Source: Escherichia phage T5_ev219
Sequence record: NC_134263.1
DNA length: 64,000 nt
Reading direction: 5' to 3' (one strand)
Both the position numbers and the translations under genes were made by a program. The number at the start of each line of letters is the position of its first letter. Within the stretch, counting starts at the first letter, position 1. Below the pieces are notes generated by a model. It did no database searches. It was not told the origin of the DNA and saw only the letters and a program-made list of their open reading frames with translations. Positions 29,239-41,645 of the stretch are shown in pieces.

Positions 29239-29315
29239 TGGTAGTTAGTAGTGGATTTGAACCACTGTAGTCGCTCCGTATGAAGGAGGTGCATAACCAC
29301 TCTGCCAACTAACTA
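29239..29315 (-). tRNA. tRNA with CAT anticodon (Met, fMet or Ile-lysidine)
   Basis: Manual cloverleaf; loop TTCATAC; CCA encoded. Confidence 0.65.
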
Positions 29316-29409
29316 TTATGTTTTATTAGACTAAGTAAGTATTCTTTATACTCTATAGACCAATTAGCTTTTTTAAACTTTCCTGGACGCATAGTCTTAA
29401 TTCCTAAAT

Positions 29410-29486
29410 TTGGTACTCCGGGAGGGATTTAAACCCCCGATCTCTCGGTTATCAGCCGAGTGCTTTAGATCGCTAAGCTACCGAAG
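29410..29486 (-). tRNA. tRNA-Ile (GAT)
   Basis: Manual cloverleaf; anticodon loop CTGATAA; CCA encoded. Confidence 0.7.
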
Positions 29487-29502
29487 CATTAGAATATTTA
29501 CA

Positions 29503-29793
29503 TCATACACTGTCTAAATAAGAAGTATAATGGAATTTAGCTTCTCCAGTCTTATCTATTTCTACCTCAGTTCGTGGTACTTGACGAACTACACCATGAA
29601 TCATCTTATAGCGAATGCCTTTAGCTGGTTCATGATCTTTTGGAAATACCTGTTTAACCGTTACTACTTTATACTCTTCACGCGGTGTTAACACAACTAC
29701 TTGATCACCTTCTTTGATTTTCCAAGAAGATGGAAATTCATAGGTATATCTTTGACCACCAGTTTGGAATACTACAGAAAGATAACGCTTCAT
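29503..29793 (-). CDS. hypothetical protein
   Basis: 96-aa ORF between tRNA genes. Confidence 0.5.
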   Translation of the reverse strand: MKRYLSVVFQTGGQRYTYEFPSSWKIKEGDQVVVLTPREEYKVVTVKQVFPKDHEPAKGIRYKMIHGVVRQVPRTEVEIDKTGEAKFHYTSYLDSV

Positions 29794-29823
29794 TTGGTTT
29801 CCCTCTCATTAATTTATATAAAT

Positions 29824-29853
29824 ATTATAACAAGAAATAAGAGAGAAGGCAAA
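29824..29853 (-). promoter_or_regulatory. sigma70-type promoter of the conserved family
   Basis: TTGCCT, about 18 bp, TATAAT on minus strand. Confidence 0.5.
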
Positions 29854-29867
29854 TGAATTTTTAAATT

Positions 29868-29942
29868 TGGTGCTCCCACCAGGAATCGAACCCGGTTCAG
29901 ATGCTTACAAGGCAACTGCATCGCCAGCAATGCTTTAGGAGC
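29868..29942 (-). tRNA. tRNA-Thr (TGT)
   Basis: Manual cloverleaf; loop CTTGTAA. Confidence 0.65.
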
Positions 29943-29952
29943 GATAATCCCA

Positions 29953-30117
29953 TTATTTCAACGGGATTTCTTTTTCAATAACAGGAGACTTATCAGTCAT
30001 AACTGTCATTGCCATTTGTTGTAGAAATTCAAAGGTGAAGGCTACACGTTCTTCACCAATCTCTACTTCTACACGTTTCTTTTGTTTATCGATCTTGACT
30101 TTTAGGTTATCAGCCAT
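29953..30117 (-). CDS. small hypothetical protein
   Basis: 54-aa ORF below the track cutoff. Confidence 0.35.
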   Translation of the reverse strand: MADNLKVKIDKQKKRVEVEIGEERVAFTFEFLQQMAMTVMTDKSPVIEKEIPLK

Positions 30118-30361
30118 TAGAGAGTACAGTACTGGTAGTTGGCAATACTACAGATGAAGCAACAGTGTTTAAATGCTTTCTCCAGTCTAGGTTAAATTGT
30201 TTTCGAAACTCTTCATAAGGTTCTTCTGGATAAAAGCTAAAACCTCCTTTCTCGTCATTCAGGATAACAGAGCCGTCAGTTTGTTCGTATGCTCGGTATG
30301 TTTCTCCAATAACAATAATTCGTTTATCGGTACTTTTATTACGAAACTCAAAAACGTGCAT
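30110..30361 (-). CDS. hypothetical protein
   Basis: 83-aa ORF. Confidence 0.45.
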   Translation of the reverse strand: MHVFEFRNKSTDKRIIVIGETYRAYEQTDGSVILNDEKGGFSFYPEEPYEEFRKQFNLDWRKHLNTVASSVVLPTTSTVLSNG

Positions 30362-30377
30362 AATGTTTCCTTAAAGT

Positions 30378-30453
30378 TGGAGCGGCTAGAGGGAATCGAA
30401 CCCTACTCAGCGAGGCTTGGAAGGCCTGCGACACAACCCGTGTGCTTAACCGC
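30378..30453 (-). tRNA. tRNA-Gly (TCC), tentative
   Basis: Manual cloverleaf; good acceptor and T arm; anticodon assignment depends on stem register. Confidence 0.55.
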
Positions 30454-30461
30454 TTATTATT

Positions 30462-30537
30462 TGGCTGGAGAAGGAGGAATCGAACCTACCATTAACGGAG
30501 TCAAAGGCCGTTGTGCTAACCGTTACACTACTCTCCA
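30462..30537 (-). tRNA. tRNA-Gln (TTG)
   Basis: Manual cloverleaf; U1-A72; loop CTTTGAC. Confidence 0.65.
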
Positions 30538-30543
30538 ATAATT

Positions 30544-30619
30544 TGGCTGGGATGCCACGGATCGAACGTGGAACCTTCGGAGTCAGAGGCCGACGATCTG
30601 CCAATTGATCTACATCCCA
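30544..30619 (-). tRNA. tRNA-Gln (CTG)
   Basis: Manual cloverleaf with fully paired arms; loop CTCTGAC. Confidence 0.7.
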
Positions 30620-30632
30620 ATAATTCTTTACT

Positions 30633-30827
30633 CTATGGAAATAGAGTAACTGGCTCAGGTTCTTCAAGGCGCTTACCTTCATGATCTACTCGAATGACTC
30701 CGCATCCTTCGCAAACCACAACTGCACCATAACCTTCTTTGACTTCGGCTTCTGTAATCAGACCAGATAAGTCACCAGTATCTCTGCCCCACATATCAAT
30801 GGAGCATTGTTTGCAGAAATCAGCCAT
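30633..30827 (-). CDS. small Cys-rich protein (zinc-ribbon-like)
   Basis: 64 aa; CKQC...CEGC. Confidence 0.5.
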   Translation of the reverse strand: MADFCKQCSIDMWGRDTGDLSGLITEAEVKEGYGAVVVCEGCGVIRVDHEGKRLEEPEPVTLFP

Positions 30828-30852
30828 AGTTTATTTCCTATTTAAGTTAATT

Positions 30853-30929
30853 TGGGGTGGCTAGTGGAATTCGAATCCACATAGGCCTGATTCACAATCA
30901 GGATCATTAACCAATTATGATATAGCCAC
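30853..30929 (-). tRNA. tRNA-His (GTG)
   Basis: Manual cloverleaf, perfect stems; loop TTGTGAA. Confidence 0.75.
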
Positions 30930-31297
30930 AATTGAAAACTCGCAGGGTTAGCGAAACCATCCTCAATTAGCATGTTCTAGAATACTAATCAAGTTATCTC
31001 CTATTGCACGCAGCTCAAGACGAGTACGAATTTTCAATTGTGGCGGCTCTCAGAAACTCTTCTATTCTAGCCTCAGAAGCTTACCCCCGAACGCATGTCG
31101 GGAAAGTCTTTCCAAGAGCATCAAATAGCACCGTTACACTTTGAGCCATTGATGTATCAAGGAATAGAAGGGCTTGAACCTTCATGAGTTAGACCATTTA
31201 ACTCAACCGCTTTTAAGGTATATTTCTAGGAGTGGATGTTCCTAGTAAACCTATTCGGCAGTCCCGTCTACCAATTCCGGCATATTCCAAGAATTTT

Positions 31298-31471
31298 TTA
31301 TAAACCGGCAGAAGCCTCATTTAAAGCATCAACAATAGCTTCACGCTGGGTCATTCCATACCCGGTGGAGTCTAGGTGAGGCAAATAGGCTGCCCATCCA
31401 TTATCTGTTTCATGAAGGTATGCTTTAAATTTTTTACCATCCTTCATTGTTACAGTAACTGTTTTGCTCAT
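31298..31471 (-). CDS. small protein, HicB-antitoxin-like fold candidate
   Basis: 57-aa ORF with AGGAAT RBS; resemblance weak. Confidence 0.35.
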   Translation of the reverse strand: MSKTVTVTMKDGKKFKAYLHETDNGWAAYLPHLDSTGYGMTQREAIVDALNEASAGL

Positions 31472-31491
31472 AAGGATTCCTTATAGTTAAT

Positions 31492-31581
31492 TGGAGGAAG
31501 GTAATGGAGTCGAACCATCACCGTATCACTACAGCGGGCTAGTTTTCAAGACTAGTTGCGTACCACTACGCCCTACCTTCC
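31492..31581 (-). tRNA. tRNA-Ser (TGA), class II
   Basis: 90 nt; perfect acceptor; loop CTTGAAA; long variable arm. Confidence 0.75.
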
Positions 31582-31588
31582 ATTTGTT

Positions 31589-31679
31589 TGGCGGAAGAGG
31601 AGAGATTTGAACTCTCAAGCCGTTTTACCAGTCAGCCACTTTCCAAGCGGTTTTCGTCGCCAATTCGATTTGCTCTTCC
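31589..31679 (-). tRNA. class II tRNA, probably Ser (GGA)
   Basis: 91 nt; perfect acceptor and T arm; anticodon stem partly paired. Confidence 0.55.
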
Positions 31680-31791
31680 AATAATAAGATGATGCCTCTA
31701 TCATACCAGGCAGTTACGCCTCGCTGGGATTCGAACCCATTAAAACAGCTCAACCGAGATAGTAGGTTTAATTTACTCTGACCATCAAATT

Positions 31792-31868
31792 TGGTGCGTG
31801 ACAAGGGATTCGAACCCTCAAAACCCGACTTCTAAGGACGGTATGTATGCCAATTCCATCAATCACGC
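31792..31868 (-). tRNA. tRNA with TAG anticodon (Leu codon CUA) but short variable loop
   Basis: 77 nt; good acceptor, D, anticodon and T arms; 5-nt variable region. Confidence 0.55.
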
Positions 31869-31873
31869 GTATT

Positions 31874-31952
31874 TGGTGGAGGATAACGAATTCGAATCGT
31901 TCTGATGTCCTCGGTGCAAGCGAGGTGTCCACTCCCAGCAGACCCATCCCCC
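31874..31952 (-). tRNA. tRNA-Ala (TGC)
   Basis: Perfect anticodon stem; loop CTTGCAC. Confidence 0.7.
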
Positions 31953-32238
31953 AAATTCTTTAGTTTACTAAGGCTATTAGCTCGGCGTAACTACAGCACC
32001 TTCGCTTCGAGCGGAAGGAACTGCGTCATCTCGCAAACCCAATACACTATTCAGTTGCCGCTGAATCTAGTGGACTAATCTAGAACTTCTCCCAAATCGT
32101 AGGAATCGTGCTTTTTGGCAGCCAGTCCTAGGTCGAGCTAATACCTTAGTGAACTATGATGAGGATTTCTCCCCATCAATTTATATAAATATTATAACAA
32201 GAAATTAAGCATTAAGCAACTGCGTTTTTTCTTGAAAT

Positions 32239-32317
32239 TGGTAGATCGCCTGGGACTCGAACCCAGAACCTTCCGATTAAAAGTCGGATGCTACTAAACC
32301 TATTGAGCTAGCGACCT
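32239..32317 (-). tRNA. tRNA-Lys (TTT)
   Basis: Perfect anticodon stem; loop CTTTTAA. Confidence 0.7.
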
Positions 32318-32318
32318 A

Positions 32319-32486
32319 TTAGTAACCATTATATACTTCTTTAATAGAGTGGACTTTTAAATAGGGATGATTAGTATTAAACTCTACCATTACTTCATCC
32401 CAATTTTTACCATAATGGGCAAGTAAGGATTTTGATGTATTCTTACCTAAACGTTTGTCACTTACTACTAATCGAAATACTTTCAT
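32319..32486 (-). CDS. small hypothetical protein
   Basis: 55-aa ORF with GAGGAT RBS. Confidence 0.4.
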   Translation of the reverse strand: MKVFRLVVSDKRLGKNTSKSLLAHYGKNWDEVMVEFNTNHPYLKVHSIKEVYNGY

Positions 32487-32506
32487 TTCGAAATCCTCTA
32501 TTAAAA

Positions 32507-32584
32507 TGGAAGCGGGTGCAGGAATCGAACCTACCTCTTTCTAGCTTATGAGACTAGTGATCTCTACCAGAGATCTAACCCGCA
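32507..32584 (-). tRNA. tRNA with CAT anticodon, unpaired 1:72 (initiator-like)
   Basis: Loop CTCATAA; D stem GATC/GATC; U1-U72 mismatch. Confidence 0.6.
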
Positions 32585-32590
32585 ATTGTT

Positions 32591-32669
32591 TGGTCTCCGT
32601 GGGAGGATTTGAACCCCCGACCCTATCGCCCCAAACGAAACGCTCTGACCAAACTGAGCTACACGGAGA
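32591..32669 (-). tRNA. tRNA-Pro (TGG)
   Basis: Perfect acceptor; loop TTTGGGG. Confidence 0.65.
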
Positions 32670-32672
32670 ATA

Positions 32673-32831
32673 TTATTTCTTCAACCACAACAAAGATAAG
32701 CCCAGCATACTAAAGCCGCTAACTAATCCGATACCTTTTTCTTCTATAGTAAAAGTATCTAGATTAAATGCTGTTATAGCTATTGGCATACACCATAATG
32801 CCATAAAAACTTGAGCTATCTTGTGTTTCAT
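32673..32831 (-). CDS. small hydrophobic protein
   Basis: 52-aa ORF with GGAAGG RBS behind a family promoter. Confidence 0.4.
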   Translation of the reverse strand: MKHKIAQVFMALWCMPIAITAFNLDTFTIEEKGIGLVSGFSMLGLSLLWLKK

Positions 32832-33042
32832 TTTGCTTTCCTTCCCTTCACTTTATAAGATATATTATACAGAGAATTAAGCAGAATAGCAAATGAATTT
32901 TTAATAAATTTACTTATTGTGTAGGCCACCTGGAGGCTATGAACCCCACGGCTGACAAAGAAGTTTGCGAGACCTCTCTTAAATGCCAGAATAGACCCGC
33001 CGATCTATCGGAACCTACATAATAAGTAAACTTTATAGTGTC

Positions 33043-33162
33043 ATTCTAGACAGGATTCGAACCTGTTATCACTTGTGCGGACTTACGAGAACCATTCTTT
33101 CACTCGAATCGAACGAGCTTCTGCCCTCGCCAAGTTGGTTTCCCCATCAACCACGCTAGAAT
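33043..33162 (-). other. 120-nt tRNA-like structured element (two T-arm-like hairpins inside a 7-bp closing stem)
   Basis: CTAGAAT/ATTCTAG pair at the ends; internal GGTTCGAATCC-like and TTCGATT hairpins. Confidence 0.3.
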
Positions 33163-33284
33163 GTTTGATTGTTTTCAGTGCAAGAGTCCGAGTCTTGGAC
33201 ACGACCGCTTCGCAAGTACATAGGCAGCTTATCATGAGTCAGCACTTCCGAATTGCTAGCTCCGTGTTCTGCACTGAAATTTTA

Positions 33285-33641
33285 TTAGTTTAACCGTAAA
33301 GTATTATCTACTTCACCATTAATTGTTCGGCATTCCTCTGGGATTGCCGGGGTGGCCTTGTATTCCCACCACTCAGCACCATCATATTCCCCACGTTCTA
33401 GCCAAGTTCCATCGGCAAACCATACATTACCATAAAGTAATTGTCCACCGTATCCAGAATCATATTCAAAGTCTAGGTTATTAAGAAAATCCTCAATATC
33501 TTCTTCTGCATAACCTAAAGGTAATACCCAAACTTTTTTATCCCCATAATACCCGAATTCTATTTTAATACACTTAACTTCAGAATTAGTATTTTTTAAG
33601 GCAAGTAACAGCTCTTCTTTAGCATTACGCATATTACGCAT
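33285..33641 (-). CDS. hypothetical protein
   Basis: Track ORF 33285..33728 trimmed to Met30 because the N-terminal extension runs into tRNA-Asp. Confidence 0.5.
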   Translation of the reverse strand: MRNMRNAKEELLLALKNTNSEVKCIKIEFGYYGDKKVWVLPLGYAEEDIEDFLNNLDFEYDSGYGGQLLYGNVWFADGTWLERGEYDGAEWWEYKATPAIPEECRTINGEVDNTLRLN

Positions 33642-33666
33642 AATATATTCCCATACTGGATTAATT

Positions 33667-33743
33667 TGGCGCGACCGATGGGATTTGAACCCACATTCTC
33701 TCCCGTGACAGGGGAGTACCATTACCAAGCCAGCCCCGGTCGC
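33667..33743 (-). tRNA. tRNA-Asp (GTC)
   Basis: Perfect acceptor; loop CTGTCAC. Confidence 0.75.
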
Positions 33744-33752
33744 ATAATTTAT

Positions 33753-33938
33753 TTACTCAGCTTTGAGTTTTTCAATAGCTGCATTAAGTTCTTTAAGAAA
33801 CTCTTTTCGTACATTAAGACGATTGAGACTTACTAGTATATCATGTTTAAGTTCTTCGATGTATTTCTTTTCAACTTCAATATTGTTGATAGTGCTATCA
33901 CGATGAACTTCTAACTGTGCAATTACATTCTTGGACAT
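33753..33938 (-). CDS. hypothetical coiled-coil protein
   Basis: 61-aa ORF. Confidence 0.4.
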   Translation of the reverse strand: MSKNVIAQLEVHRDSTINNIEVEKKYIEELKHDILVSLNRLNVRKEFLKELNAAIEKLKAE

Positions 33939-34040
33939 GCTTGTTTCCTCAGTTATTAATGAAAATGGTATCTGTGGCTGAATTCGATGTCAGCAATGAT
34001 AGCTGGTTGGCTACCGGTTTACTTAACTCTACACAGAATT

Positions 34041-34118
34041 TGGCGGTTCCTGCTGGATTCGAACCAGCAACCCTCAACTTAACAAGATGCCGCTCTAACC
34101 AATTAGAGCTAAGGAACC
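34041..34118 (-). tRNA. tRNA-Asn (GTT), tentative
   Basis: Perfect acceptor, D and T arms; weak anticodon stem; loop TTGTTAA. Confidence 0.55.
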
Positions 34119-34613
34119 ATATAAGTCAGAACTAGAGTTAATACGTTCTAGATATTTACTAAGATCCCTAGAATTTATACTAAACCACTCATGTTCTTTT
34201 AAATCTTTGAAATACTGGTGAATTAGTTTTTCACCTTTTCGTTTGTCAAACCAAAAAGACCAATGCTCTAACTTATAATCCCTATAAGGGGAATAAGTCT
34301 GATATTGAGCTAATCTCTCTTTTGGATTTTGACTCATACCTATTTTATACTGATTTTTCCATGCAGGATTACTAATACAGTATACAAAACCTTCAGAAAT
34401 AGGAAGTTTATTTTCCTGCTTAAACTTTATAAAGGAAAGTGCAGCAAGTTTTCTCGAATACATAGTATTTGTATTCTTTTTGGTATTACCATTGGTTCCT
34501 GAAAGATTTATATATTCTTCCATAAATCTCTGGATTAGTTCTGCGGTTATATAGAAGGGCTCATTAGTAACAACGCCTTTCTTTACCAAACTATCAAAAA
34601 CTTTTGTATGCAC
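34095..34613 (-). CDS. GIY-YIG-like domain protein
   Basis: 172 aa; GFVYCISNP...YKIGMSQNP..R pattern; last 7 codons and stop overlap the 5' end of tRNA-Asn. Confidence 0.55.
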   Translation of the reverse strand: MHTKVFDSLVKKGVVTNEPFYITAELIQRFMEEYINLSGTNGNTKKNTNTMYSRKLAALSFIKFKQENKLPISEGFVYCISNPAWKNQYKIGMSQNPKERLAQYQTYSPYRDYKLEHWSFWFDKRKGEKLIHQYFKDLKEHEWFSINSRDLSKYLERINSSSDLYGSLALIG

Positions 34614-34633
34614 TACTTCTTTCCTTTAGTAAT

Positions 34634-34709
34634 TTGGACGACCGCATGAGATTTGAACTCACATAAAAAGGATTTGCAATCCTTCGCCTAAGCCATTCAG
34701 CCAACGGTC
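34634..34709 (-). tRNA. tRNA-Cys (GCA)
   Basis: Loop TGCAAAT. Confidence 0.65.
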
Positions 34710-34897
34710 GATTTATCTTGTTTTTCGAGATCTTCAAATTCTAAATCATTGAAGTTCCCTAGAGTACGGGAGTAGAACCCGTCTCCTGCGTCATAGCCTG
34801 ATTTGCCACAATCACACATTTTAAATTCACGAAGATGTGTGAAAATATGCTCAGAACCACAACACTTAAATCTAACTAATCGTTTCATTAGTTTCAT
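34697..34897 (-). CDS. small zinc-ribbon-like protein
   Basis: 66 aa; CCGSEH...CDCG; 3' end overlaps tRNA-Cys 5' end. Confidence 0.45.
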   Translation of the reverse strand: MKLMKRLVRFKCCGSEHIFTHLREFKMCDCGKSGYDAGDGFYSRTLGNFNDLEFEDLEKQDKSTVG

Positions 34898-34946
34898 TAG
34901 CTTCTCCAGTTCAATTTATATAATTATTATATAGAACTTTTGGAAA

Positions 34947-35231
34947 CTAAGCAACTACATTTTTTAAGAATTTGATGTCTTTCTTCTTCTTATATTTCCA
35001 CGTTAATGGATTCTGTCGATTGTGAACGCTTGAGATCTTCGTCTCGTCAAAGTTCTTCAATATCATGTAATCACAAGATAATTGTTCTAATGGAATGTGA
35101 TCACCGTCAAAAGCATATACATAAGGCTGTTGACTAGCACGATAATGATAGACTTTGTTAATTCTACGTTTCAGCGACTTATCAGCGCAGTAAATAAAGA
35201 AGTTTTCAGGATGCATCAGCATCTCCTTCAA
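34947..35231 (-). CDS. hypothetical protein
   Basis: 94-aa ORF. Confidence 0.45.
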   Translation of the reverse strand: MKEMLMHPENFFIYCADKSLKRRINKVYHYRASQQPYVYAFDGDHIPLEQLSCDYMILKNFDETKISSVHNRQNPLTWKYKKKKDIKFLKNVVA

Positions 35232-35233
35232 TT

Positions 35234-35308
35234 TGGTGCACCCTGTTCGTATCGAACGAACCTCTCAAGCTCTTCAGGCAAGCGCTAATCCATCTCAGCT
35301 AAAGGTGC
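35234..35308 (-). tRNA. tRNA-Phe (GAA), tentative
   Basis: Good acceptor and T arm; loop CTGAAGA; partial anticodon stem. Confidence 0.55.
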
Positions 35309-35315
35309 AAATTTT

Positions 35316-35391
35316 GGCAAACCTACTAGGACTCGAACCTAGACCGTACGGTTTTGGAGACCGACATGCTGTCCAGTAACACTCTAGGAAT
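35316..35391 (-). tRNA. tRNA-like, Trp (CCA) anticodon arm but unpaired acceptor stem (possible pseudogene)
   Basis: Good D, anticodon and T arms and 3' CCA; 5' and 3' acceptor strands not complementary. Confidence 0.35.
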
Positions 35392-35399
35392 GCAGAAAT

Positions 35400-35476
35400 T
35401 GGCGTCCTGTGCGGGGATCGAACCCGCAAATCCTACCTTGAAAGGGTAGTGACTTTACCAGTTTGTCTAACAGGAC
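35400..35476 (-). tRNA. tRNA-Glu (TTC)
   Basis: Perfect acceptor and anticodon stems; loop CTTTCAA. Confidence 0.7.
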
Positions 35477-35483
35477 TTAAATT

Positions 35484-35574
35484 TGGTGTTGGATGATGGA
35501 GTCGAACCACCCGAGACCCTTCCGAGTCGGCAGATTTACAGTCTGCTTCGCTACCTCTACGATACTAATCCAAC
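35484..35574 (-). tRNA. tRNA-Tyr (GTA), class II
   Basis: 91 nt; perfect acceptor; anticodon stem GCAGA/TCTGC; loop CTGTAAA. Confidence 0.7.
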
Positions 35575-35702
35575 ATATTTAAAAGTATTCAAATACTAGT
35601 TTAAACACTTTTAAATATGTTTCCGAATTAGATAACTATTATACCAAGTTTTAAGGCACTGAGCAAGTCAAATTTTAAAGAACTTGCTCAGTGCTGTATT
35701 AG

Positions 35703-35978
35703 TTAGTCGAACTTAGGAGTGACAGTTAAGGAGAACGGAAGTTCGAAAACTTCTTCGCCCTCATTACTAACGGTAACTACACGACCTTTAAGTTCAGACA
35801 TTAAAATATCAATATCAGCTTTTGCATCTGGAGCCATGCCAGCTTCAATACATTTAGCTTTAACTTCCGGTAAAAGCTCTACGTTATAGAGATAGAGCCA
35901 CTCAATCTCACCTTCCCAGTCTTCCCAGGATTTGCAGATTGCACTTTCAATACCAGTTGCTACAACACGATTTTGCAT
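35703..35978 (-). CDS. hypothetical protein
   Basis: 91-aa ORF behind a family promoter. Confidence 0.5.
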   Translation of the reverse strand: MQNRVVATGIESAICKSWEDWEGEIEWLYLYNVELLPEVKAKCIEAGMAPDAKADIDILMSELKGRVVTVSNEGEEVFELPFSLTVTPKFD

Positions 35979-36068
35979 TAATTAACTCCTTCATCAATTT
36001 ATATAACTATTATACCAGAAATTTAAAGTAAAAGGCAAGTACATTTTTAAAAATTCTGTTTGGAGGAG

Positions 36069-36275
36069 CTAAACTCCAGATTTTTCGGCCAAGTCTAGAC
36101 TAATAAGAGTTATAGCCATAATTGCTGCACCGTGTTCTTTTTCTCCGGTGTTTTTAGCAGAGTCTATAATATCCTTAATCTGTTCGTAATAACTTTTTAC
36201 TTCTTGTTCAATGCCTGCCTCGGCTATCATGCCTTTAGCCATGAATCGTTGCATGGTAATTTCAGGATTAGCCAT
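36069..36275 (-). CDS. hypothetical protein
   Basis: 68-aa ORF. Confidence 0.45.
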   Translation of the reverse strand: MANPEITMQRFMAKGMIAEAGIEQEVKSYYEQIKDIIDSAKNTGEKEHGAAIMAITLISLDLAEKSGV

Positions 36276-36450
36276 GTTGTTTCTCCAGTTTCATTTTTAA
36301 TAGTTTACAGATGAAATCAACGTCTTCATCTGTGCCTAAGTCTCTATCCTCAAGGGTCGCCTTGAAGTTTTTCGTCAATTCCATGAGGATGATTTCCCTA
36401 GAACGACGTGTTGGCGGAGGTGGATGTCTATACATCTTATTTCCTTAATT

Positions 36451-36527
36451 TGGTAGGGGTGGTGGGATTCGAACCCACAAAACCTGAATTTTAAGTCCAG
36501 TACCTATGCCAATTCGATTACACCCCC
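36451..36527 (-). tRNA. tRNA with TAA anticodon (Leu codon UUA) but short variable loop
   Basis: 77 nt; good acceptor, anticodon and T arms; D-loop AATTGGCATA shared with 31792..31868. Confidence 0.55.
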
Positions 36528-36628
36528 GTGTAATCAGTTTATTAGTTGATACATATTATAGCCTAAAGAAAACCCTACTACTAATCCTACTAACCAACCA
36601 ATATAATAATCTTTTAATTTCACGGGTG

Positions 36629-36814
36629 TCAACCTCGTTCAATATCTAGAGAAATACCACAGGTAGGATTAATGCCTGTGCCTTTGCACGTCGGACAAAC
36701 CCAGATATTACAGAATGTATCCCCTGCTTCTGCATCAGAACTTTCTCCAACTCCTAGACAGTCAGGACAGGCACATTCTTCTAGCTCTTGCTTGAGTTCT
36801 TGAAACTTAGACAT
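36629..36814 (-). CDS. small zinc-ribbon protein
   Basis: 61 aa; CACPDC...CPTCKG. Confidence 0.5.
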   Translation of the reverse strand: MSKFQELKQELEECACPDCLGVGESSDAEAGDTFCNIWVCPTCKGTGINPTCGISLDIERG

Positions 36815-36823
36815 ATAGTTTCC

Positions 36824-37012
36824 TTATTCAATTACTTTTGAGGCTTCAAGGGAGTCGATATAGTGTACGTTTTCTACCATAATCATATAATCTGCCACTT
36901 TATCCATAGCCTGAGCTTCAGAGGTAGCCCTGGCTAACCTATATCCTTTTTTATATTCATCCGGGTATTCCCTATCTGGAATAAACACAACATAAACTAG
37001 GTATAGTTCCAC
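36824..37012 (-). CDS. hypothetical protein
   Basis: 62-aa ORF. Confidence 0.4.
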   Translation of the reverse strand: MELYLVYVVFIPDREYPDEYKKGYRLARATSEAQAMDKVADYMIMVENVHYIDSLEASKVIE

Positions 37013-37033
37013 TTGTAACCCCTCTAATTAAAC

Positions 37034-37111
37034 TGGTGGCTCCCCGAGGATTCGAACCTACGTACCTTCCGGTTATGAGCCGGGTGCTCATACCATATGA
37101 GCTTGAGAACC
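37034..37111 (-). tRNA. tRNA with CAT anticodon, E. coli fMet-like anticodon arm
   Basis: Anticodon arm CCGG-CTCATAA-CCGG; D stem GCTC/GAGC; weak T stem. Confidence 0.5.
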
Positions 37112-37117
37112 AGAATT

Positions 37118-37206
37118 TGGCGGAAGAAGTGGGAATCGAACCCACAAGGCTATATTTCAAACCGACAGATTAGCAATCTGCTGCAATACCGTTATGCTAT
37201 TCTTCC
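37118..37206 (-). tRNA. tRNA-Ser (GCT), class II
   Basis: 89 nt; perfect acceptor; loop TTGCTAA. Confidence 0.65.
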
Positions 37207-37949: not shown

Positions 37950-38011
37950 ATATGTTATGGATGAGTGATCAAAGAGACACACATTTTCTATATACTAGGA
38001 GGTGTCAAAAA

Positions 38012-38992
38012 ATGACAGAAGAAGTAGCTAAGAGTCCTGAGACCGTCGCTAGCGTAGCAGCAGAACTGCATCGTCACGAGGAATCAGATAAGAAAAAGTG
38101 GGAGAAGGTCAGAGCCTACGAAGAAGAACATCGTGAACACGATGATAAAGATGAAGAAGATGACGATGATGTACGTTGTCATAAATATGGAAAATATAAA
38201 ATGCAAGAACCAGTAAACGTATTTACTAACGGCTTCCCTGGCATGGGTGCATTCCCAGCTAACGCAAGTGCTTTCGGTGGAGAAGGTATGGGTCTATTCG
38301 GAGCTATCCTAATCGGTGCTCTATTAACCGGCGGATTTGGTGGTTTTGGTGGTTTTGGTCGTGGTGCTGGCGTTGCCGCTGAAGGAACCGCTGTGGACGC
38401 GATCCTTTCTAACCAGGATACTGCAAGTATTCTAGCTGCAATCAATACTACTCGTACAGAAGCTAACCAGGGCACTGGGGCTGTTCTAAGTGCAGTAAAC
38501 GGTGTGGGAGCTGCTCAAGCTGCTAGCACTCAGCAAGTTCTGACTACTATCTACGGTACAGGTGCTAATCTGTCAAACCAGATCTGTGCTGAAACTCGTA
38601 ACGTTATTCAGGGTCAGTTCGATCTTTCTCGTCAGATGGATCAATCTTTCGCTGCTAACCAGATAGCACGTGCTCAAGATAAGTTTGACTCTGCTCAGAT
38701 TGCTTTCCAGCAGTCTATTCAGACCAACAACCAGTTTGCCGCTGTTCAGGCTCAGATGTGCGCTAACCAGAACGCTATCGAACGTCAGCTTGCTGAATGT
38801 TGCTGTGAGCTTCAGACTGCGATCGCTGGTGTAACTACTGCACGTATCCAGGACGAACTGAATGAATGCCGTCTGCGCGAAGCAATCGCTGCAGGTAGCG
38901 GTGCAAATGGTCAGGTAATCAACCAAATCGCTGTAAGTCTTGGTGCTATCACTCAGACTCTGGCTGGTCTGCAGGCTAAACTGCCGGCTTAA
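38012..38992 (+). CDS. Gly/Ala/Gln/Asn-rich low-complexity protein with central hydrophobic Gly-rich segment
   Basis: Track ORF trimmed to MTEEVAK with AGGAGG RBS; acidic N-terminus, GMGLFGAILIGALLTGGFGGFGGFG segment, Q/A/N-rich C-terminus with ECCCEL. Confidence 0.6.
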   Translation: MTEEVAKSPETVASVAAELHRHEESDKKKWEKVRAYEEEHREHDDKDEEDDDDVRCHKYGKYKMQEPVNVFTNGFPGMGAFPANASAFGGEGMGLFGAILIGALLTGGFGGFGGFGRGAGVAAEGTAVDAILSNQDTASILAAINTTRTEANQGTGAVLSAVNGVGAAQAASTQQVLTTIYGTGANLSNQICAETRNVIQGQFDLSRQMDQSFAANQIARAQDKFDSAQIAFQQSIQTNNQFAAVQAQMCANQNAIERQLAECCCELQTAIAGVTTARIQDELNECRLREAIAAGSGANGQVINQIAVSLGAITQTLAGLQAKLPA

Positions 38993-39013
38993 AATTAAGG
39001 GGAGGAGCCCATT

Positions 39014-39430
39014 ATGAGTAAATATGGTTTTGTGAACAACGGATTTAATCAACCAATGGGCTCCCAGCAGCCCGTTCCGGGTCTGGATAATCCTTACCTA
39101 CAACAGTTGCAACAGCGTTTAGCAGAAGCGCAACAGATGCAGCAACAACTCCAGCAAAACCCTGGAAGTGTGAGTCCTATGCAAATGATGCAGCAAATGA
39201 GCGGGCAGTCGCAAATGCCTCAACAAATGCATCAACAGGTGACTCAGCAGCAAGTTCAGCAGCAAACCCAACAACCGCAGGTTTCTGCGGAAGGACAGGC
39301 AGTACTAGCCCTTTTCGAAGACTTCGCAAAGACAGAGGATGGGAAGCAGCTTGTATCACTTATGGGTAAGTTTAATAGCTTCTGCCAAAGCCAAATTGCA
39401 AAAGCTCAAAATAGCGGTAATAACTCCTAA
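39014..39430 (+). CDS. glutamine-rich low-complexity protein
   Basis: 138 aa; GGGAGG RBS; poly-Q/QQ-rich middle. Confidence 0.55.
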   Translation: MSKYGFVNNGFNQPMGSQQPVPGLDNPYLQQLQQRLAEAQQMQQQLQQNPGSVSPMQMMQQMSGQSQMPQQMHQQVTQQQVQQQTQQPQVSAEGQAVLALFEDFAKTEDGKQLVSLMGKFNSFCQSQIAKAQNSGNNS

Positions 39431-39439
39431 GGAGGAATT

Positions 39440-39634
39440 ATGTGTTGCAGAAAATCTGTTTCGTGCTGCCCAATGCCTGTAGCACGTTGTTGCTCTCCAG
39501 CAATGTTTACGCAAATACCGGCGTTCAATCCGTTTGCCTTTAAGCCTACTCTTATCCTGCCCCCTAGAGTAGATTTTCAGTCAAGATTGGCCTCCCGTAT
39601 GGGTGGTTGCTGTAACAAGAGTATATGGTTCTAA
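39440..39634 (+). CDS. Cys-rich small protein with four CC doublets
   Basis: 64 aa; AAGGAGG RBS; MCCRK..SCCP..RCCSP...GGCCNK. Confidence 0.5.
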   Translation: MCCRKSVSCCPMPVARCCSPAMFTQIPAFNPFAFKPTLILPPRVDFQSRLASRMGGCCNKSIWF

Positions 39635-39649
39635 GGAACCAAACAATAA

Positions 39650-39686
39650 AGCCCCTAGTCGAAAGACTTAGGGGCTTTTCTTTTAT
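39650..39686 (+). terminator. rho-independent terminator of the plus-strand cassette
   Basis: GC-rich hairpin followed by TTTTCTTTT. Confidence 0.7.
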
Positions 39687-39687
39687 C

Positions 39688-39735
39688 TTAAATACAGAAA
39701 AGCCCTGCGCTCTCCAGGGAACGCAGGGCTTACTT
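39688..39735 (-). terminator. rho-independent terminator downstream of SPFH gene
   Basis: 8-bp stem gccctgcg/cgcagggc then U-run on minus strand. Confidence 0.65.
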
Positions 39736-39754
39736 CGAATATTACGTGTGGGTA

Positions 39755-40736: not shown

Positions 40737-40811
40737 TGGCCGAGGTGACAGGATTCGAACCTGCATAAAGGAATTTAGAAGACTCCTGCCTCTCCCTTAG
40801 ACTACACCCCG
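40737..40811 (-). tRNA. tRNA-Arg (TCT)
   Basis: Anticodon stem GGAGT/ATTCC; loop CTTCTAA; CCA encoded. Confidence 0.65.
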
Positions 40812-41313
40812 TTTAAGTATTTTTAAGAACTCTCGTAAAAACTCTTAAAAATACAGACGATACCGGGAGAGTCATAAGTCTCACTCATTAAGTATTTCAA
40901 GACAAAATACAGTAACGTCTATTATTTTCCAGTTTAAGTCAGGGTGACTTAGTGGTTATGTCCTGCGGTATATTGAGGACTCGGTTAGGCTTGGGGTCAT
41001 GACTTCCCGCCTTTTGCTGCTACTCAACAGGAGTTATCGCGAATTACCTGTGCTATTGTGCACCATTAGTGACATCTCTCATGTCAGCATTTCCCACTTT
41101 GTGGATAGCTTGAAAAACTACTCCGATATGGAGAAAGAACTTCACTATCCTAGAATACCTTCTAAAGTTCTTCTTTAGCCTGGACATAGTTAAATCGTAA
41201 TAAAACTATTCAGCAGACTGGTTGGTTAGTCTGGAACCAACTACCGCGTGGTTTAGGCAGTGCGCAACTAACCTCGGAAGCTTTTACGTTAAAAGCATCA
41301 GTTATCCAGTTCT

Positions 41314-41385
41314 TACCGACCGTAGGATTCGAACCTACATCTTCCACCAGTTACGGCTTGGTAATACCAATTATACTAGGACGGC
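41314..41385 (-). tRNA. tRNA-like element (no encoded CCA; possible pseudogene)
   Basis: T arm GTAGG-TTCGAAT-CCTAC; acceptor with one mismatch; non-canonical anticodon loop. Confidence 0.3.
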
Positions 41386-41645
41386 AGTGTTACTACATAA
41401 GTGATTTCCACACCCCACTATTTATAAATTAGAGAAGAGTTTAGGGGAGAGGTTTCAGACGCCCCATTTTACACGTTCTAGCCACTAACCGGGATTGCCG
41501 CCCCCTGTGTACTAGTTTTCCAACTAACCCACCGACTCTATTCAATGCGCTCCGGTTGGGATTCTGCACTCAGCGTAATCGGCTCGCTGTTCTCTAATTT
41601 ATGAATATATTATACAGAATTTATAGGCATTTAGCAAATAAATTT

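What the first reader, a model, noticed from the sequence alone, without database searches (positions are those of the whole stretch)
29239..37206. Large minus-strand tRNA cluster with several non-canonical members
About 24 tRNA-like genes were found by manual cloverleaf folding, plus tRNA-Arg at 40737. Oddities: two paralogous tRNAs with Leu-codon anticodons (TAG at 31792, TAA at 36451) but only 5-nt variable loops, whereas bacterial Leu tRNAs are class II; a Trp-anticodon gene (35316) whose acceptor strands do not pair; a 120-nt nested tRNA-like structure (33043-33162); three CAT-anticodon tRNAs; two Gln isoacceptors. The class-I Leu-anticodon pair may be charged with a different amino acid or be regulatory.
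Basis: seen in the sequence. Interest (0 to 1): 0.55.

Follow-up and report, generated by a model that had tools for sequence, protein, structure and literature searches.

The report
T5-like phage tRNA gene cluster
This is the well-known 8-kb tRNA-rich region of a T5-like phage. Its oddest members, two leucine tRNAs without the usual long extra arm, look like genuine leucine tRNAs of a type that is common in phage tRNA arrays.

Summary
ARAGORN and Rfam place 23 minus-strand tRNA genes in 29239-37206, plus tRNA-Arg at 40737. The window is a Tequintavirus, 96% identical to phage chee24 and collinear with T5.

Most of the "oddities" are already annotated in T5:
- The 120-nt nested structure is T5 RNA2, a "tRNA-like stable RNA with unknown functions" (98.4% identical).
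- The three CAT tRNAs are elongator Met, fMet and Ile2.

The Trp gene pairs at 5 of 7 acceptor positions. Its two U·U mismatches are invariant in diverged homologues whose other pairs covary.

The two Leu-anticodon tRNAs really are class I (77 nt, 5-nt variable loop). They keep what E. coli LeuRS is reported to need: A73, U8, A14, A15-U48, G18G19 and a 3-bp D stem with a tRNALeu-type 11-nt D loop.

The same scaffold occurs in at least 120 viral contigs. There it carries only Leu anticodons (all six), always has A73, and shows strong covariation. Their cognate codons, UUA and CUA, are the phage's two commonest Leu codons. Mischarging or a regulatory role is therefore not supported.

One caveat: E. 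coli LeuRS failed to charge the one natural bacterial type-I tRNALeu that has been tested.

Overall this is a known cluster, with an apparently undescribed abundance of armless tRNALeu in phages.

The parts
29239..29314 (-). tRNA-Met(CAU), elongator
   Evidence: ARAGORN; Rfam 51.5 bits; 100% identical to T5 tRNAM(CAU)
29411..29487 (-). tRNA-Ile(GAU)
   Evidence: 100% identical to T5 tRNAI1
29868..29942 (-). tRNA-Thr(UGU)
   Evidence: 96% identical to T5 tRNAT
30378..30453 (-). tRNA-Gly(UCC), low-scoring
   Evidence: found only by relaxed ARAGORN; 100% identical to T5 tRNAG1, which the T5 record annotates as convertible to an effective amber suppressor
30462..30537 (-). tRNA-Gln(UUG)
   Evidence: a different allele from T5's (no BLAST hit); same allele as chee24
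30544..30619 (-). tRNA-Gln(CUG)
30853..30929 (-). tRNA-His(GUG)
   Evidence: 100% identical to T5
30931..31036 (-). T5 stable RNA III homologue
   Evidence: 100% identical to T5 rnaIII; annotated 'stable RNA with unknown functions'
31041..31147 (-). T5 stable RNA I homologue (ends in GCCA)
   Evidence: 98.1% identical to T5 rnaI
31148..31291 (-). T5 RNA1 homologue: a class-II tRNALeu-like stable RNA with a 40-nt insert before the anticodon-like loop and no CCA
   Evidence: 94-95% identical to T5 rna1; ARAGORN intron mode; D loop GAAUUGGUAGA matches E. coli tRNALeu; acceptor and anticodon-stem pairs covary but the 'anticodon' is not conserved
31492..31581 (-). tRNA-Ser(UGA), class II, 90 nt
   Evidence: 100% identical to T5 tRNAS1
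31792..31868 (-). class-I (armless) tRNA-Leu(UAG): A73, 3-bp D stem, D loop GAAUUGGCAUA, variable loop GUUUU, U30·U40 mismatch in the anticodon stem
   Evidence: (47.5 bits); at least 95% identical in about 160 phage records
31874..31952 (-). tRNA-Ala(UGC), 79 nt: G3:U70, A73, 7-nt variable region
   Evidence: ARAGORN; not found by Rfam even at E<=1; same allele in chee24, T5_ev212 and mar003J3
31972..32143 (-). T5 stable RNA 2H homologue
   Evidence: 98.3% identical
32239..32317 (-). tRNA-Lys(UUU)
   Evidence: only 77% identical to the T5 allele
32507..32584 (-). initiator tRNA-fMet(CAU), with a U1·U72 mismatch
   Evidence: 98.7% identical to T5 tRNAfM
32591..32668 (-). tRNA-Pro(UGG)
   Evidence: 72% identical to the T5 allele
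32918..33020 (-). T5 stable RNA IV homologue
   Evidence: 96.1% identical
33039..33163 (-).
   Evidence: 98.4% identical to T5 rna2, annotated 'tRNA-like stable RNA with unknown functions'; compensatory changes in the T stem and inner hairpin; present in about 296 phage records at >=80% coverage; no Rfam family
33667..33743 (-). tRNA-Asp(GUC)
   Evidence: 100% identical to T5
33966..34038 (-). T5 RNA3 homologue ('putative tRNA-like RNA')
   Evidence: 100% identical; annotation
34041..34118 (-). tRNA-Asn(GUU)
   Evidence: 100% identical to T5
34635..34710 (-). tRNA-Cys(GCA)
   Evidence: 100% identical to T5
35234..35308 (-). tRNA-Phe(GAA)
   Evidence: 97% identical to T5
35315..35391 (-). tRNA-Trp(CCA): A1-U72, G73, and conserved tandem U2·U71 / U3·U70 mismatches
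   Evidence: (36.3 bits); mismatches invariant while 6:67, 7:66 and the T stem covary; >=99% identical in 237 records; unrelated to T5's own 71-nt Trp allele
35400..35476 (-). tRNA-Glu(UUC)
35484..35574 (-). tRNA-Tyr(GUA), class II, 91 nt
36451..36527 (-). class-I (armless) tRNA-Leu(UAA): G1·U72, A73, the same D arm and variable loop as the UAG tRNA
   Evidence: (57.4 bits); >=95% identical in about 324 phage records; absent from T5, where hegA lies at this position; near-consensus sigma-70-like site at 36632-36603 upstream
37034..37111 (-). tRNA-Ile2(CAU)
   Evidence: Rfam 40.3 bits; relaxed ARAGORN; 97.4% identical to T5 tRNAI2(CAU)
37118..37206 (-). tRNA-Ser(GCU), class II, 89 nt
   Evidence: 100% identical to T5 tRNAS3
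40737..40811 (-). tRNA-Arg(UCU)
   Evidence: 100% identical to T5 tRNAR
40812..41441 (-). T5 RNAX homologue (stable RNA upstream of tRNA-Arg), holding a tRNA-like module at 41313-41386
   Evidence: 91-99% identical to T5 rnaX; the module is called 'Ser(ACT)' by ARAGORN and scores 37.9 bits in Rfam; it has no CCA

Best explanation
The interval is the tRNA-rich early region of a T5-like phage (Tequintavirus). It holds 24 tRNA genes covering every amino acid except Val, interleaved with small ORFs and with the T5 stable RNAs I, III, IV, 2H, 1, 2, 3 and X. All are transcribed leftward from several phage promoters.

From published work on T5-like phages, the region supplies tRNAs for phage-preferred, host-rare codons. 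It also replaces host tRNAs destroyed by anticodon nucleases.

The two armless Leu-anticodon tRNAs are genuine leucine tRNAs. They descend from class-II tRNALeu and have lost the long variable arm. They keep the parts that E. coli-type LeuRS reads: discriminator A73, U8-A14, the A15-U48 pair, G18G19 placed by a 3-bp D stem and 11-nt D loop, and the T loop. The inference is that host LeuRS charges them and that they decode UUA/UUG and CUA/CUG (possibly CUU).

Only Leu can lose the arm, because SerRS and bacterial TyrRS depend on it and LeuRS does not.

Shown here: the genes, their structure, conservation, covariation, linkage to Leu anticodons, and the codon match. Inferred: charging by host LeuRS and use on the ribosome.
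For: Identity of the region:
- 625 phage records match by megablast; the best are T5-like phages at 96%.
- Sixteen tRNAs and eight stable RNAs are 91-100% identical to annotated T5 features, in the same order.

Role of the region:
- Azam 2024 (PMC11555353) shows that the ~8-kb tRNA-rich region of T5-like phages is dispensable, and that its tRNATyr and tRNALys rescue infection from retron-Eco7 and PrrC.

Leucine identity of the two armless tRNAs:
- They align with E. coli leuW and leuZ and with T5's class-II tRNALeu everywhere except the arm. They share the 3-bp D stem and the RAAUYGG-N-A-N-A D loop.
- Per Giege & Eriani 2023 (PMC9976931), E. coli LeuRS needs A73, A15-U48, G18G19, A20a and the D/T-loop contacts. 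It does not need the anticodon or the long arm, and arm-less minimal tRNALeu stays active.
- An IMG/VR scan for this D loop at class-I spacing found at least 120 contigs. All 126 tRNAs had Leu anticodons: UAG 66, UAA 25, CAA 18, AAG 8, CAG 5, GAG 4. None had GAA or AAA.
- With the anticodon left free, the result was 126 Leu against 7 others.
- A73 is present in 126 of 126. U8, U48 and A73 are invariant although the search pattern did not impose them.
- Across 74 distinct sequences, 99.4% of cells are paired and 18 of 20 pairs show double changes. The covariation score is 1.02, against 0.24 for shuffles and 0.10-0.19 for slid controls.
- In the same viral loci, Leu tRNAs are 189 short and 58 long, Ser 1 short and 100 long, Tyr 0 short and 42 long.
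- UUA (25.0%) and CUA (22.4%) are the two commonest Leu codons in 33 long ORFs of the window.
- Where the window has UUA or CUA and T5 differs, T5 encodes Leu in 71 of 89 cases.
- Both tRNAs have G3-C70, so they lack Ala identity, and they have no long arm, so they lack Ser identity.
Against: - No charging or expression data exist for these two genes.
- E. coli LeuRS could not leucylate the natural type-I tRNALeu(CAA) of Streptomyces coelicolor, and the authors describe it as charging only type-II tRNALeu (PMC6614811). That tRNA has C48 rather than U48.
- The UAG tRNA has a U30·U40 mismatch in its anticodon stem.
- T5 itself uses a class-II tRNALeu(UAG) and has no tRNALeu(UAA), so the armless pair is not essential to the lineage.
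- The viral loci used for the Leu/Ser/Tyr comparison were selected for holding a class-I Leu.
Confidence: 0.8

Rival explanations
1. The armless Leu-anticodon tRNAs are charged with a different amino acid and recode UUA or CUA codons.
For: They lack the hallmark long arm of bacterial tRNALeu. E. coli LeuRS did not charge the S. coelicolor type-I tRNALeu.
Against: - The anticodon-independent alternatives are excluded: there is no G3:U70 (Ala) and no long arm (Ser).
- Anticodon-reading synthetases would not accept UAG or UAA.
- A73 and the tRNALeu-type D arm are conserved in 126 of 126 relatives, which carry all six Leu anticodons and no others.
- UUA and CUA together make up 47% of Leu codons in the window.
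- These codons interchange mainly with other Leu codons in T5, which lacks these tRNAs.
Confidence: 0.03
2. They are not decoding tRNAs. Instead they are uncharged decoys, regulators or decaying pseudogenes, like the neighbouring tRNA-like stable RNAs 1, 2 and 3.
For: The same region does hold conserved tRNA-like RNAs without a decoding function. One of them, RNA1, is tRNALeu-like. The UAG tRNA has an anticodon-stem mismatch. T5 lacks both genes.
Against: - RNA1's 'anticodon' drifts. The anticodon loops of the armless family stay restricted to Leu anticodons with U33 and A35.
- CCA is encoded in both window genes and in 91 of 126 relatives.
- All four stems covary.
- The isoacceptors match the phage's top two Leu codons.
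- The genes are near-identical in about 160 and about 324 phage genomes.
Confidence: 0.1
3. The unusual features (armless Leu, U·U pairs in Trp, the 79-nt Ala) are neutral decay in a dispensable, fast-evolving region and have no adaptive meaning. The genes work, or half-work, by tolerance.
For: The region is dispensable in the laboratory. It is a mosaic of alternative alleles among T5-like phages. Several T5 tRNAs fail as amber suppressors according to the T5 record.
Against: - The U2·U71 and U3·U70 mismatches are invariant across Tequintavirus, Sugarlandvirus and a Stephanstirmvirinae myovirus, while neighbouring pairs change by compensation.
- The armless Leu design recurs in very diverse viral contigs (median pairwise identity 0.65) and in bacterial tRNA arrays.
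Confidence: 0.07

Closest known systems
Bacteriophage T5 tRNA gene region (NC_005859 28038-41566; the 'tRNA-rich region' of Azam et al. 2024)
   Same: Same gene order and strand. Sixteen tRNAs are 96-100% identical: Met, Ile1, Thr, Gly1, His, Ser1, fMet, Asp, Asn, Cys, Phe, Glu, Ile2, Ser3, Arg. The stable RNAs III, I, 1, 2H, IV, 2, 3 and X are 91-100% identical.
   Different: The alleles of Gln x2, Lys, Pro, Trp, Tyr and Ala differ. A class-I Leu(UAG) sits where T5 has a class-II 85-nt Leu(UAG). There is an extra class-I Leu(UAA) where T5 has the hegA endonuclease. Val and Ser2(GGA) are absent, and the region holds no HNH endonuclease ORFs.
E. coli class-II tRNALeu (leuW UAG, leuZ UAA)
   Same: Same anticodons, A73, U8, a 3-bp D stem, an 11-nt D loop RAAUYGG-N-A-N-A, and U48. 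The UAA species shares G1·U72 with leuZ.
   Different: A 5-nt variable loop replaces the 13-15-nt stem-loop. Stem sequences are unrelated.
Natural type-I tRNALeu: S. coelicolor tRNALeu(CAA) and human mitochondrial tRNALeu(UUR) (PMC6614811)
   Same: A leucine anticodon on a tRNA with a 5-nt variable loop. The Streptomyces tRNA is shown to be leucylated by its own LeuRS.
   Different: The Streptomyces tRNA has variable loop ACAGC (C48), does not use A73, needs a specialised LSD domain, and is not charged by E. coli LeuRS. The phage tRNAs keep U48, A73 and an E. coli-like D arm, and they occur in phages of enterobacteria.
Engineered arm-less or minimal E. coli tRNALeu (Larkin 2002, Asahara 1998, Tocchini-Valentini 2000, as summarised in PMC9976931)
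   Same: These show that E. coli LeuRS can do without the long arm provided A73 and the D/T-loop tertiary contacts are intact.
   Different: They are laboratory constructs. The phage tRNAs are natural and conserved.
T5 RNA2 and RNA1 ('tRNA-like stable RNA with unknown functions')
   Same: The 31148-31291 element is 94-95% identical to RNA1.
   Different: Nothing material. Their function is unknown in T5 as well.

Membership tests
T5-type phage tRNA-rich region | Collinear with and highly similar to the T5 / T5-like tRNA region | tested here: met
T5-type phage tRNA-rich region | Dense array of tRNA genes recognised by tRNA predictors | tested here: met
   23 by ARAGORN, 23 by Rfam; 24 tRNA genes after reconciling the two
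T5-type phage tRNA-rich region | Dispensable for growth, with individual tRNAs rescuing the phage from tRNA-cleaving defences | not testable with these tools
   Published for SP15 and T5 (PMC11555353). SP15 carries an identical Leu(UAG) gene (H33).
Canonical bacterial (class-II) tRNALeu | Leucine anticodon (NAG or YAA) | tested here: met
   UAG and UAA
Canonical bacterial (class-II) tRNALeu | Discriminator A73 | tested here: met
   Both genes; 126 of 126 relatives
Canonical bacterial (class-II) tRNALeu | 3-bp D stem and 11-nt D loop with A14, A15, G18G19 and an A two positions after G19; U48 to pair with A15 | tested here: met
   Alignment with leuW and leuZ; U48 invariant
Canonical bacterial (class-II) tRNALeu | Long variable arm (stem-loop of more than 10 nt) | tested here: not met
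   Variable loop is the 5-nt GUUUU. These are therefore not class-II tRNAs.
Type-I (armless) tRNALeu | Leu anticodon on a cloverleaf with a 4-5-nt variable loop, with the structure conserved | tested here: met
Type-I (armless) tRNALeu | Leucylated by the resident LeuRS | not testable with these tools
   Shown only for S. coelicolor and mitochondria. E. coli LeuRS was negative on the Streptomyces tRNA.
T5 RNA2 (tRNA-like stable RNA) | Sequence identity and position between tRNA-Asp and tRNA-Pro | tested here: met
   98.4% identical over 125 nt at the same position
T5 RNA2 (tRNA-like stable RNA) | Accumulates as a stable RNA in infected cells | not testable with these tools
   Rests on the T5 GenBank annotation only
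tRNATrp (E. coli identity set) | CCA anticodon, G73, A1-U72 | tested here: met
tRNATrp (E. coli identity set) | G2-C71 and G3-C70 pairs in a fully paired acceptor stem (identity set quoted from my own knowledge of E. coli tRNATrp) | tested here: not met
   U2·U71 and U3·U70, conserved in four diverged homologues
tRNAIle2 (CAU, lysidine) | CAU anticodon, read as Ile after TilS modification | not tested
   Assigned only through 97.4% identity to T5 tRNAI2(CAU)

The most novel reading that the evidence does not exclude
Loss of the long arm from phage tRNALeu may be an adaptive counter-defence and not simple streamlining. The armless tRNA keeps the host LeuRS identity set. It sheds the structural mark by which defence toxins aimed at class-II tRNAs pick their targets. 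Candidate toxins are AbiEii/MenT-type nucleotidyltransferases, or nucleases selective for long-arm tRNAs.

Leucine decoding of the phage's favoured UUA and CUA codons would then survive such an attack. The conserved U·U pairs in tRNATrp and the tRNALeu-like RNA1 could be related evasion or decoy devices.

This would also mean that natural type-I tRNALeu, thought to be rare in bacteria, is charged by ordinary enterobacterial LeuRS.
Probability: 0.2. Interest if true: 0.7.

Novelty: new member of a known kind. Interest (0 to 1): 0.35.

Why it matters
The cluster itself is textbook T5 biology, and most of the flagged oddities are already annotated. That part should not be pursued as new.

What is worth keeping is that armless (type-I) leucine tRNAs are the commoner Leu tRNA allele in T5-like phages. 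They are also widespread in viral contigs and in bacterial tRNA arrays. They keep the E. coli-type leucine identity elements, while Ser and Tyr tRNAs in the same arrays never lose the arm.

The 2019 study of S. coelicolor treated type-I tRNALeu as a rarity and reported that E. coli LeuRS charges only type-II tRNALeu. If enterobacterial LeuRS charges these natural phage tRNAs, that view needs revising. The question of why phages discard the arm, possibly to evade defences directed at class-II tRNAs, could then be tested directly with existing T5-like model phages: BF23 and SP15 both carry the identical UAG gene.

Tried and rejected
- **Single-sequence folding.** MFE folding of the odd members gave z-scores of +0.3 to -2.0 and non-cloverleaf folds. 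It was uninformative, so comparative evidence was used instead.
- **ARAGORN 'intron' calls.** ARAGORN called 31159-31289 as Leu(taa) with a 40-nt intron and 33042-33162 as Arg(ccg) with a 48-nt intron. I rejected these as intron-bearing tRNA genes for four reasons. The elements are the full-length stable RNAs 1 and 2 of T5. The putative anticodon of RNA1 is not conserved. Neither element encodes CCA. The inserts are also far too short for self-splicing introns.
- **'tRNA-Lys' annotation.** Some records annotate a tRNA-Lys under the RNA2 match. It is an adjacent gene that overlaps the match by 2 nt.
- **Rfam at E<=1.** This gave no family for RNA1, 2, 3, I, III, IV or 2H, and none for the 79-nt Ala.
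- **Promoter and terminator scan.** No enrichment over shuffles. Only individual sites that coincide with annotated T5 promoters are of any use.
- **Literature searches.** Searches for phage tRNALeu without a long arm, and for the T5 stable RNAs, returned nothing specific. Larkin 2002 is not held in the library, so it is cited only through the 2023 review.
- **Protein and structure tools.** Not used, because the finding concerns RNA genes.

Full report
**What is there**

ARAGORN finds 23 tRNA genes in the window, all on the minus strand. Twenty-one lie in 29239-37206. The other two are Arg(UCU) at 40737-40811 and a 'Ser(ACU)' at 41313-41386.

Rfam finds 23 tRNA matches above the gathering score, with E-values from 6e-3 to 9e-12. 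These include a third CAU tRNA at 37037-37111. Rfam misses the 79-nt Ala.

Relaxed ARAGORN adds Gly(UCC) at 30378-30453 and two 'intron-containing' calls, at 31159-31289 and 33042-33162.

After reconciling the predictors, the interval holds 23 tRNA genes and Arg makes 24. Every amino acid is covered except Val.

**Where it comes from**

The 8.4-kb interval matches 625 phage records by megablast. The best are T5-like phages such as chee24, at 96% identity over 95% of the query.

The richly annotated T5 record lists every feature of the region (NC_005859). BLAST of those features onto the window gives three groups:
- **Shared with T5 at 96-100% identity:** Met, Ile1, Thr, Gly1, His, Ser1, fMet, Asp, Asn, Cys, Phe, Glu, Ile2, Ser3 and Arg.
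- **T5 'stable RNAs' also present:**
  - RNAIII at 30931-31036
  - RNAI at 31041-31147
  - RNA1 at 31148-31291
  - RNA2H at 31972-32143
  - RNAIV at 32918-33020
  - RNA2 at 33039-33163
  - RNA3 at 33966-34038
  - RNAX at 40812-41441
- **Different from T5:** Gln x2, Lys, Pro, Trp, Tyr, Ala and Leu(UAG) are other alleles. Val and Ser2(GGA) are absent. Leu(UAA) lies where T5 has the homing endonuclease hegA.

The region is thus the known, mosaic 'tRNA-rich region' of T5-like phages. Azam et al. showed it to be about 8 kb and dispensable. They also showed that it protects the phage from the tRNA-cleaving defences retron-Eco7 and PrrC, through its tRNATyr and tRNALys (PMC11555353).

**Oddities that are already explained**

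- **The 120-nt nested structure.** It is 98.4% identical to T5 RNA2, annotated as a 'tRNA-like stable RNA with unknown functions'.
  - Its fold is supported by compensatory changes in the T stem (A-U to G-C, and C-G to G-C).
  - The inner T-arm-like hairpin also changes by compensation (GCUCG/CGAGU to UACGG/CCGUA) in phages EH2 and mar003J3.
  - It is present in roughly 300 phage genomes.
  - It has no Rfam family.
- **The three CAU tRNAs.** They are T5's elongator Met, initiator fMet and Ile2(CAU).
- **The two Gln isoacceptors.** T5 also has two.
- **The 'Ser(ACU)' at 41313.** This is a tRNA-like module inside RNAX. It lacks CCA and is also called in T5 and chee24.

**Trp**

The acceptor strands AUUCCUA/UAGGUUU form five pairs, with U2·U71 and U3·U70 mismatches. 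'Do not pair' is therefore too strong.

The mismatches are nonetheless real and conserved. I compared four diverged homologues: the window, chee24, the Stephanstirmvirinae myovirus KP13-16, and the Sugarlandvirus VAC51. Pairs 6:67 and 7:66 and the whole T stem change by compensation, while the two U·U positions never change.

The allele is at least 99% identical in 237 records. It is unrelated to T5's own 71-nt Trp gene, which the T5 record notes fails as an amber suppressor.

A1-U72, G73 and the CCA anticodon fit tryptophan identity. Whether the gene is charged is unknown.

**The armless leucine tRNAs: structure**

Both genes are 77 nt and have:
- a 7-bp acceptor stem
- U8
- a 3-bp D stem
- the D loop GAAUUGGCAUA
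- a 5-bp anticodon stem (U30·U40 in the UAG species)
- a 5-nt variable loop GUUUU
- a standard T arm
- A73
- an encoded CCA

They are 71% identical to each other.

Aligned with E. coli leuW and leuZ and with T5's class-II tRNALeu(UAG), they match in architecture everywhere except the missing arm. The hosts' D loops are AAAUUGGUAGA and GAAUCGGUAGA on a 3-bp D stem.

According to the 2023 identity review, E. coli LeuRS depends on A73, A15-U48, G18G19, A20a and the D/T-loop contacts. It ignores the anticodon and the sequence and fold of the long arm. Minimal tRNALeu lacking the arm stays active unless A73 or the tertiary contacts are destroyed (PMC9976931). Every one of these elements is present in both genes.

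The other anticodon-blind synthetases are excluded. There is no G3:U70 for AlaRS and no long arm for SerRS.

**The armless leucine tRNAs: comparative evidence**

I scanned IMG/VR for the tRNALeu-type D loop at class-I spacing, allowing anticodons NAA or NAG. The scan hit its 120-contig limit.
- All 126 tRNAs carry Leu anticodons, covering all six, and none carries GAA or AAA.
- With the anticodon unconstrained, the same sample gives 126 Leu against 7 others: 4 His, 1 Gln, 1 Glu and 1 aberrant.
- All 126 have A73. U8, U48 and A73 are invariant although the pattern did not impose them.
- The sequences are diverse: 104 distinct 74-nt cores with median pairwise identity 0.65.
- On 74 of them, the class-I cloverleaf is 99.4% paired and 18 of 20 pairs show changes on both sides. 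The covariation score is 1.02, against 0.24 ± 0.01 in shuffles and 0.10-0.19 when partners are slid.

The NAG and YAA anticodon boxes have nothing in common except leucine. The scaffold is therefore a leucine scaffold.

In the same viral loci, the arm is lost only from Leu:

| Isotype | Short | Long |
|---|---|---|
| Leu | 189 | 58 |
| Ser | 1 | 100 |
| Tyr | 0 | 42 |

This is what the synthetases' known requirements predict. The loci were, however, chosen for holding a class-I Leu.

The same pattern occurs in at least 120 bacterial genome contigs. There, 118 of 119 hits have Leu anticodons and 112 have A73. Most lie inside dense tRNA arrays, with a median of 9 tRNAs per locus of at most 8 kb.

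Among GenBank phages, the allele counts at 95% identity or more are:
- the UAG allele in about 160 records, with more distant homologues (76-89% identity) in Felixounavirus and in 142-149-kb phages of Salmonella and Cronobacter
- the UAA allele in about 324 records
- T5's class-II allele in about 52 records

**The armless leucine tRNAs: fit to the phage's coding**

In 33 long ORFs of the window (9,332 codons), UUA is 25.0% and CUA is 22.4% of Leu codons. These are the top two, and they are the cognate codons of the two tRNAs. From general knowledge, both are minor codons in E. coli, and CUA is the rarest Leu codon.

Where the window has UUA or CUA and T5 has another codon, T5 encodes Leu in 35 of 51 and 36 of 38 cases. 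The background synonymous fraction is 68%. T5 lacks both armless genes. There is therefore no sign of reassignment.

A near-consensus sigma-70-type site (TTGACA-18-TATTAT) lies 76 nt upstream of Leu(UAA). This is a consensus match only.

**Caveat**

The only biochemical study of a natural bacterial type-I tRNALeu is on S. coelicolor tRNALeu(CAA). It found that tRNA is charged by its own LeuRS and by the human mitochondrial enzyme, but not by E. coli LeuRS (PMC6614811).

That tRNA has variable loop ACAGC (C48) and does not use A73, so it lacks elements the phage tRNAs retain. It still shows that charging by E. coli LeuRS cannot be taken for granted.

**Why lose the arm?**

The data do not decide this. 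One possibility is relaxed constraint with streamlining.

Another is evasion of defences that recognise class-II tRNAs. A 2026 preprint reports that the abortive-infection toxin AbiEii probably prefers long-arm tRNAs, as MenT3 does (10.64898/2026.01.19.700257). I treat this as a lead only.

**Verdict**

The cluster, RNA2, the CAU trio and the Gln pair are known T5 biology.

The interpretation that the armless Leu tRNAs are mischarged or regulatory is not supported. They are best read as genuine leucine tRNAs of a type-I design.

That design is common in phage and mobile tRNA arrays. As far as the searchable literature shows, its abundance there has not been described.

Noticed in passing
window 31148-31291 (-): The T5 RNA1 homologue looks like a class-II tRNALeu(UAA). 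It has a D arm CCG-GAAUUGGUAGA-CGG identical in loop to E. coli tRNALeu, a long variable arm and a T arm. It also carries a 40-nt hairpin insert before the anticodon-like loop, a U1·U72 mismatch and no CCA. Across five phages the acceptor and anticodon-stem pairs covary, but the 'anticodon' is not conserved. It may be a relic or a decoy derived from tRNALeu.
   Followed up: partly
window 41313-41386 (-), inside the RNAX homologue 40812-41441: ARAGORN calls this tRNA-like module 'Ser(ACT)' and Rfam scores it at 37.9 bits. It lies within the stable RNA X, upstream of tRNA-Arg. It has no CCA and a poor anticodon stem. ARAGORN also calls it in T5 and chee24.
   Followed up: partly
window 31874-31952 (-): This tRNA-Ala(UGC) is 79 nt, with G3:U70, A73 and a 7-nt variable region. 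Only ARAGORN detects it; Rfam misses it even at E<=1. It travels as a pair with the armless Leu(UAG), 5 nt away, and replaces T5's 75-nt Ala plus class-II Leu pair.
   Followed up: partly
window 29239-37206 compared with T5 (L126/L260): The window's tRNA region has no HNH homing-endonuclease ORFs. T5 has hegD, hegC and hegA there. hegC abuts T5's class-II Leu, and hegA occupies the place of the window's Leu(UAA) and two small ORFs. This hints that endonuclease-linked cassette exchange drives the allele mosaic.
   Followed up: partly
loci L136-L255 (bacterial genome contigs): Armless tRNALeu with the same D loop also occurs in bacterial assemblies. These include Nostoc, Tumebacillus, Chryseobacterium, Effusibacillus and many MAGs. 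Most hits lie inside dense tRNA arrays, with a median of 9 tRNAs per locus of at most 8 kb.
   Followed up: partly
window 36632-36603 (-): A near-consensus sigma-70-type site (TTGACA, 18 nt, TATTAT; 11 of 12 matches) lies 76 nt upstream of the armless Leu(UAA). Other good minus-strand sites coincide with T5 promoters P15b, P13a and P11.
   Followed up: no
window 38001-40000 (+): A G+C-rich island (0.47 against about 0.38) has positive GC skew and plus-strand ORFs 37952-38992 and 39014-39430. By position these correspond to T5.077 and T5.078, and they interrupt the leftward transcription units between the tRNA region and tRNA-Arg.
   Followed up: no
L001 12872-12965 (phage chee24): The chee24 tRNA-Glu is annotated and predicted at 94 nt because of an internal tandem duplication (…gagaatcggagttcaat ctgagaatcggagttcaat…). 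The window's orthologue is a normal 77 nt.
   Followed up: no
window 31792-31868 (-): The armless Leu(UAG) carries a U30·U40 mismatch in its anticodon stem. In the 74-sequence family alignment it is the only member unpaired at that position.
   Followed up: no
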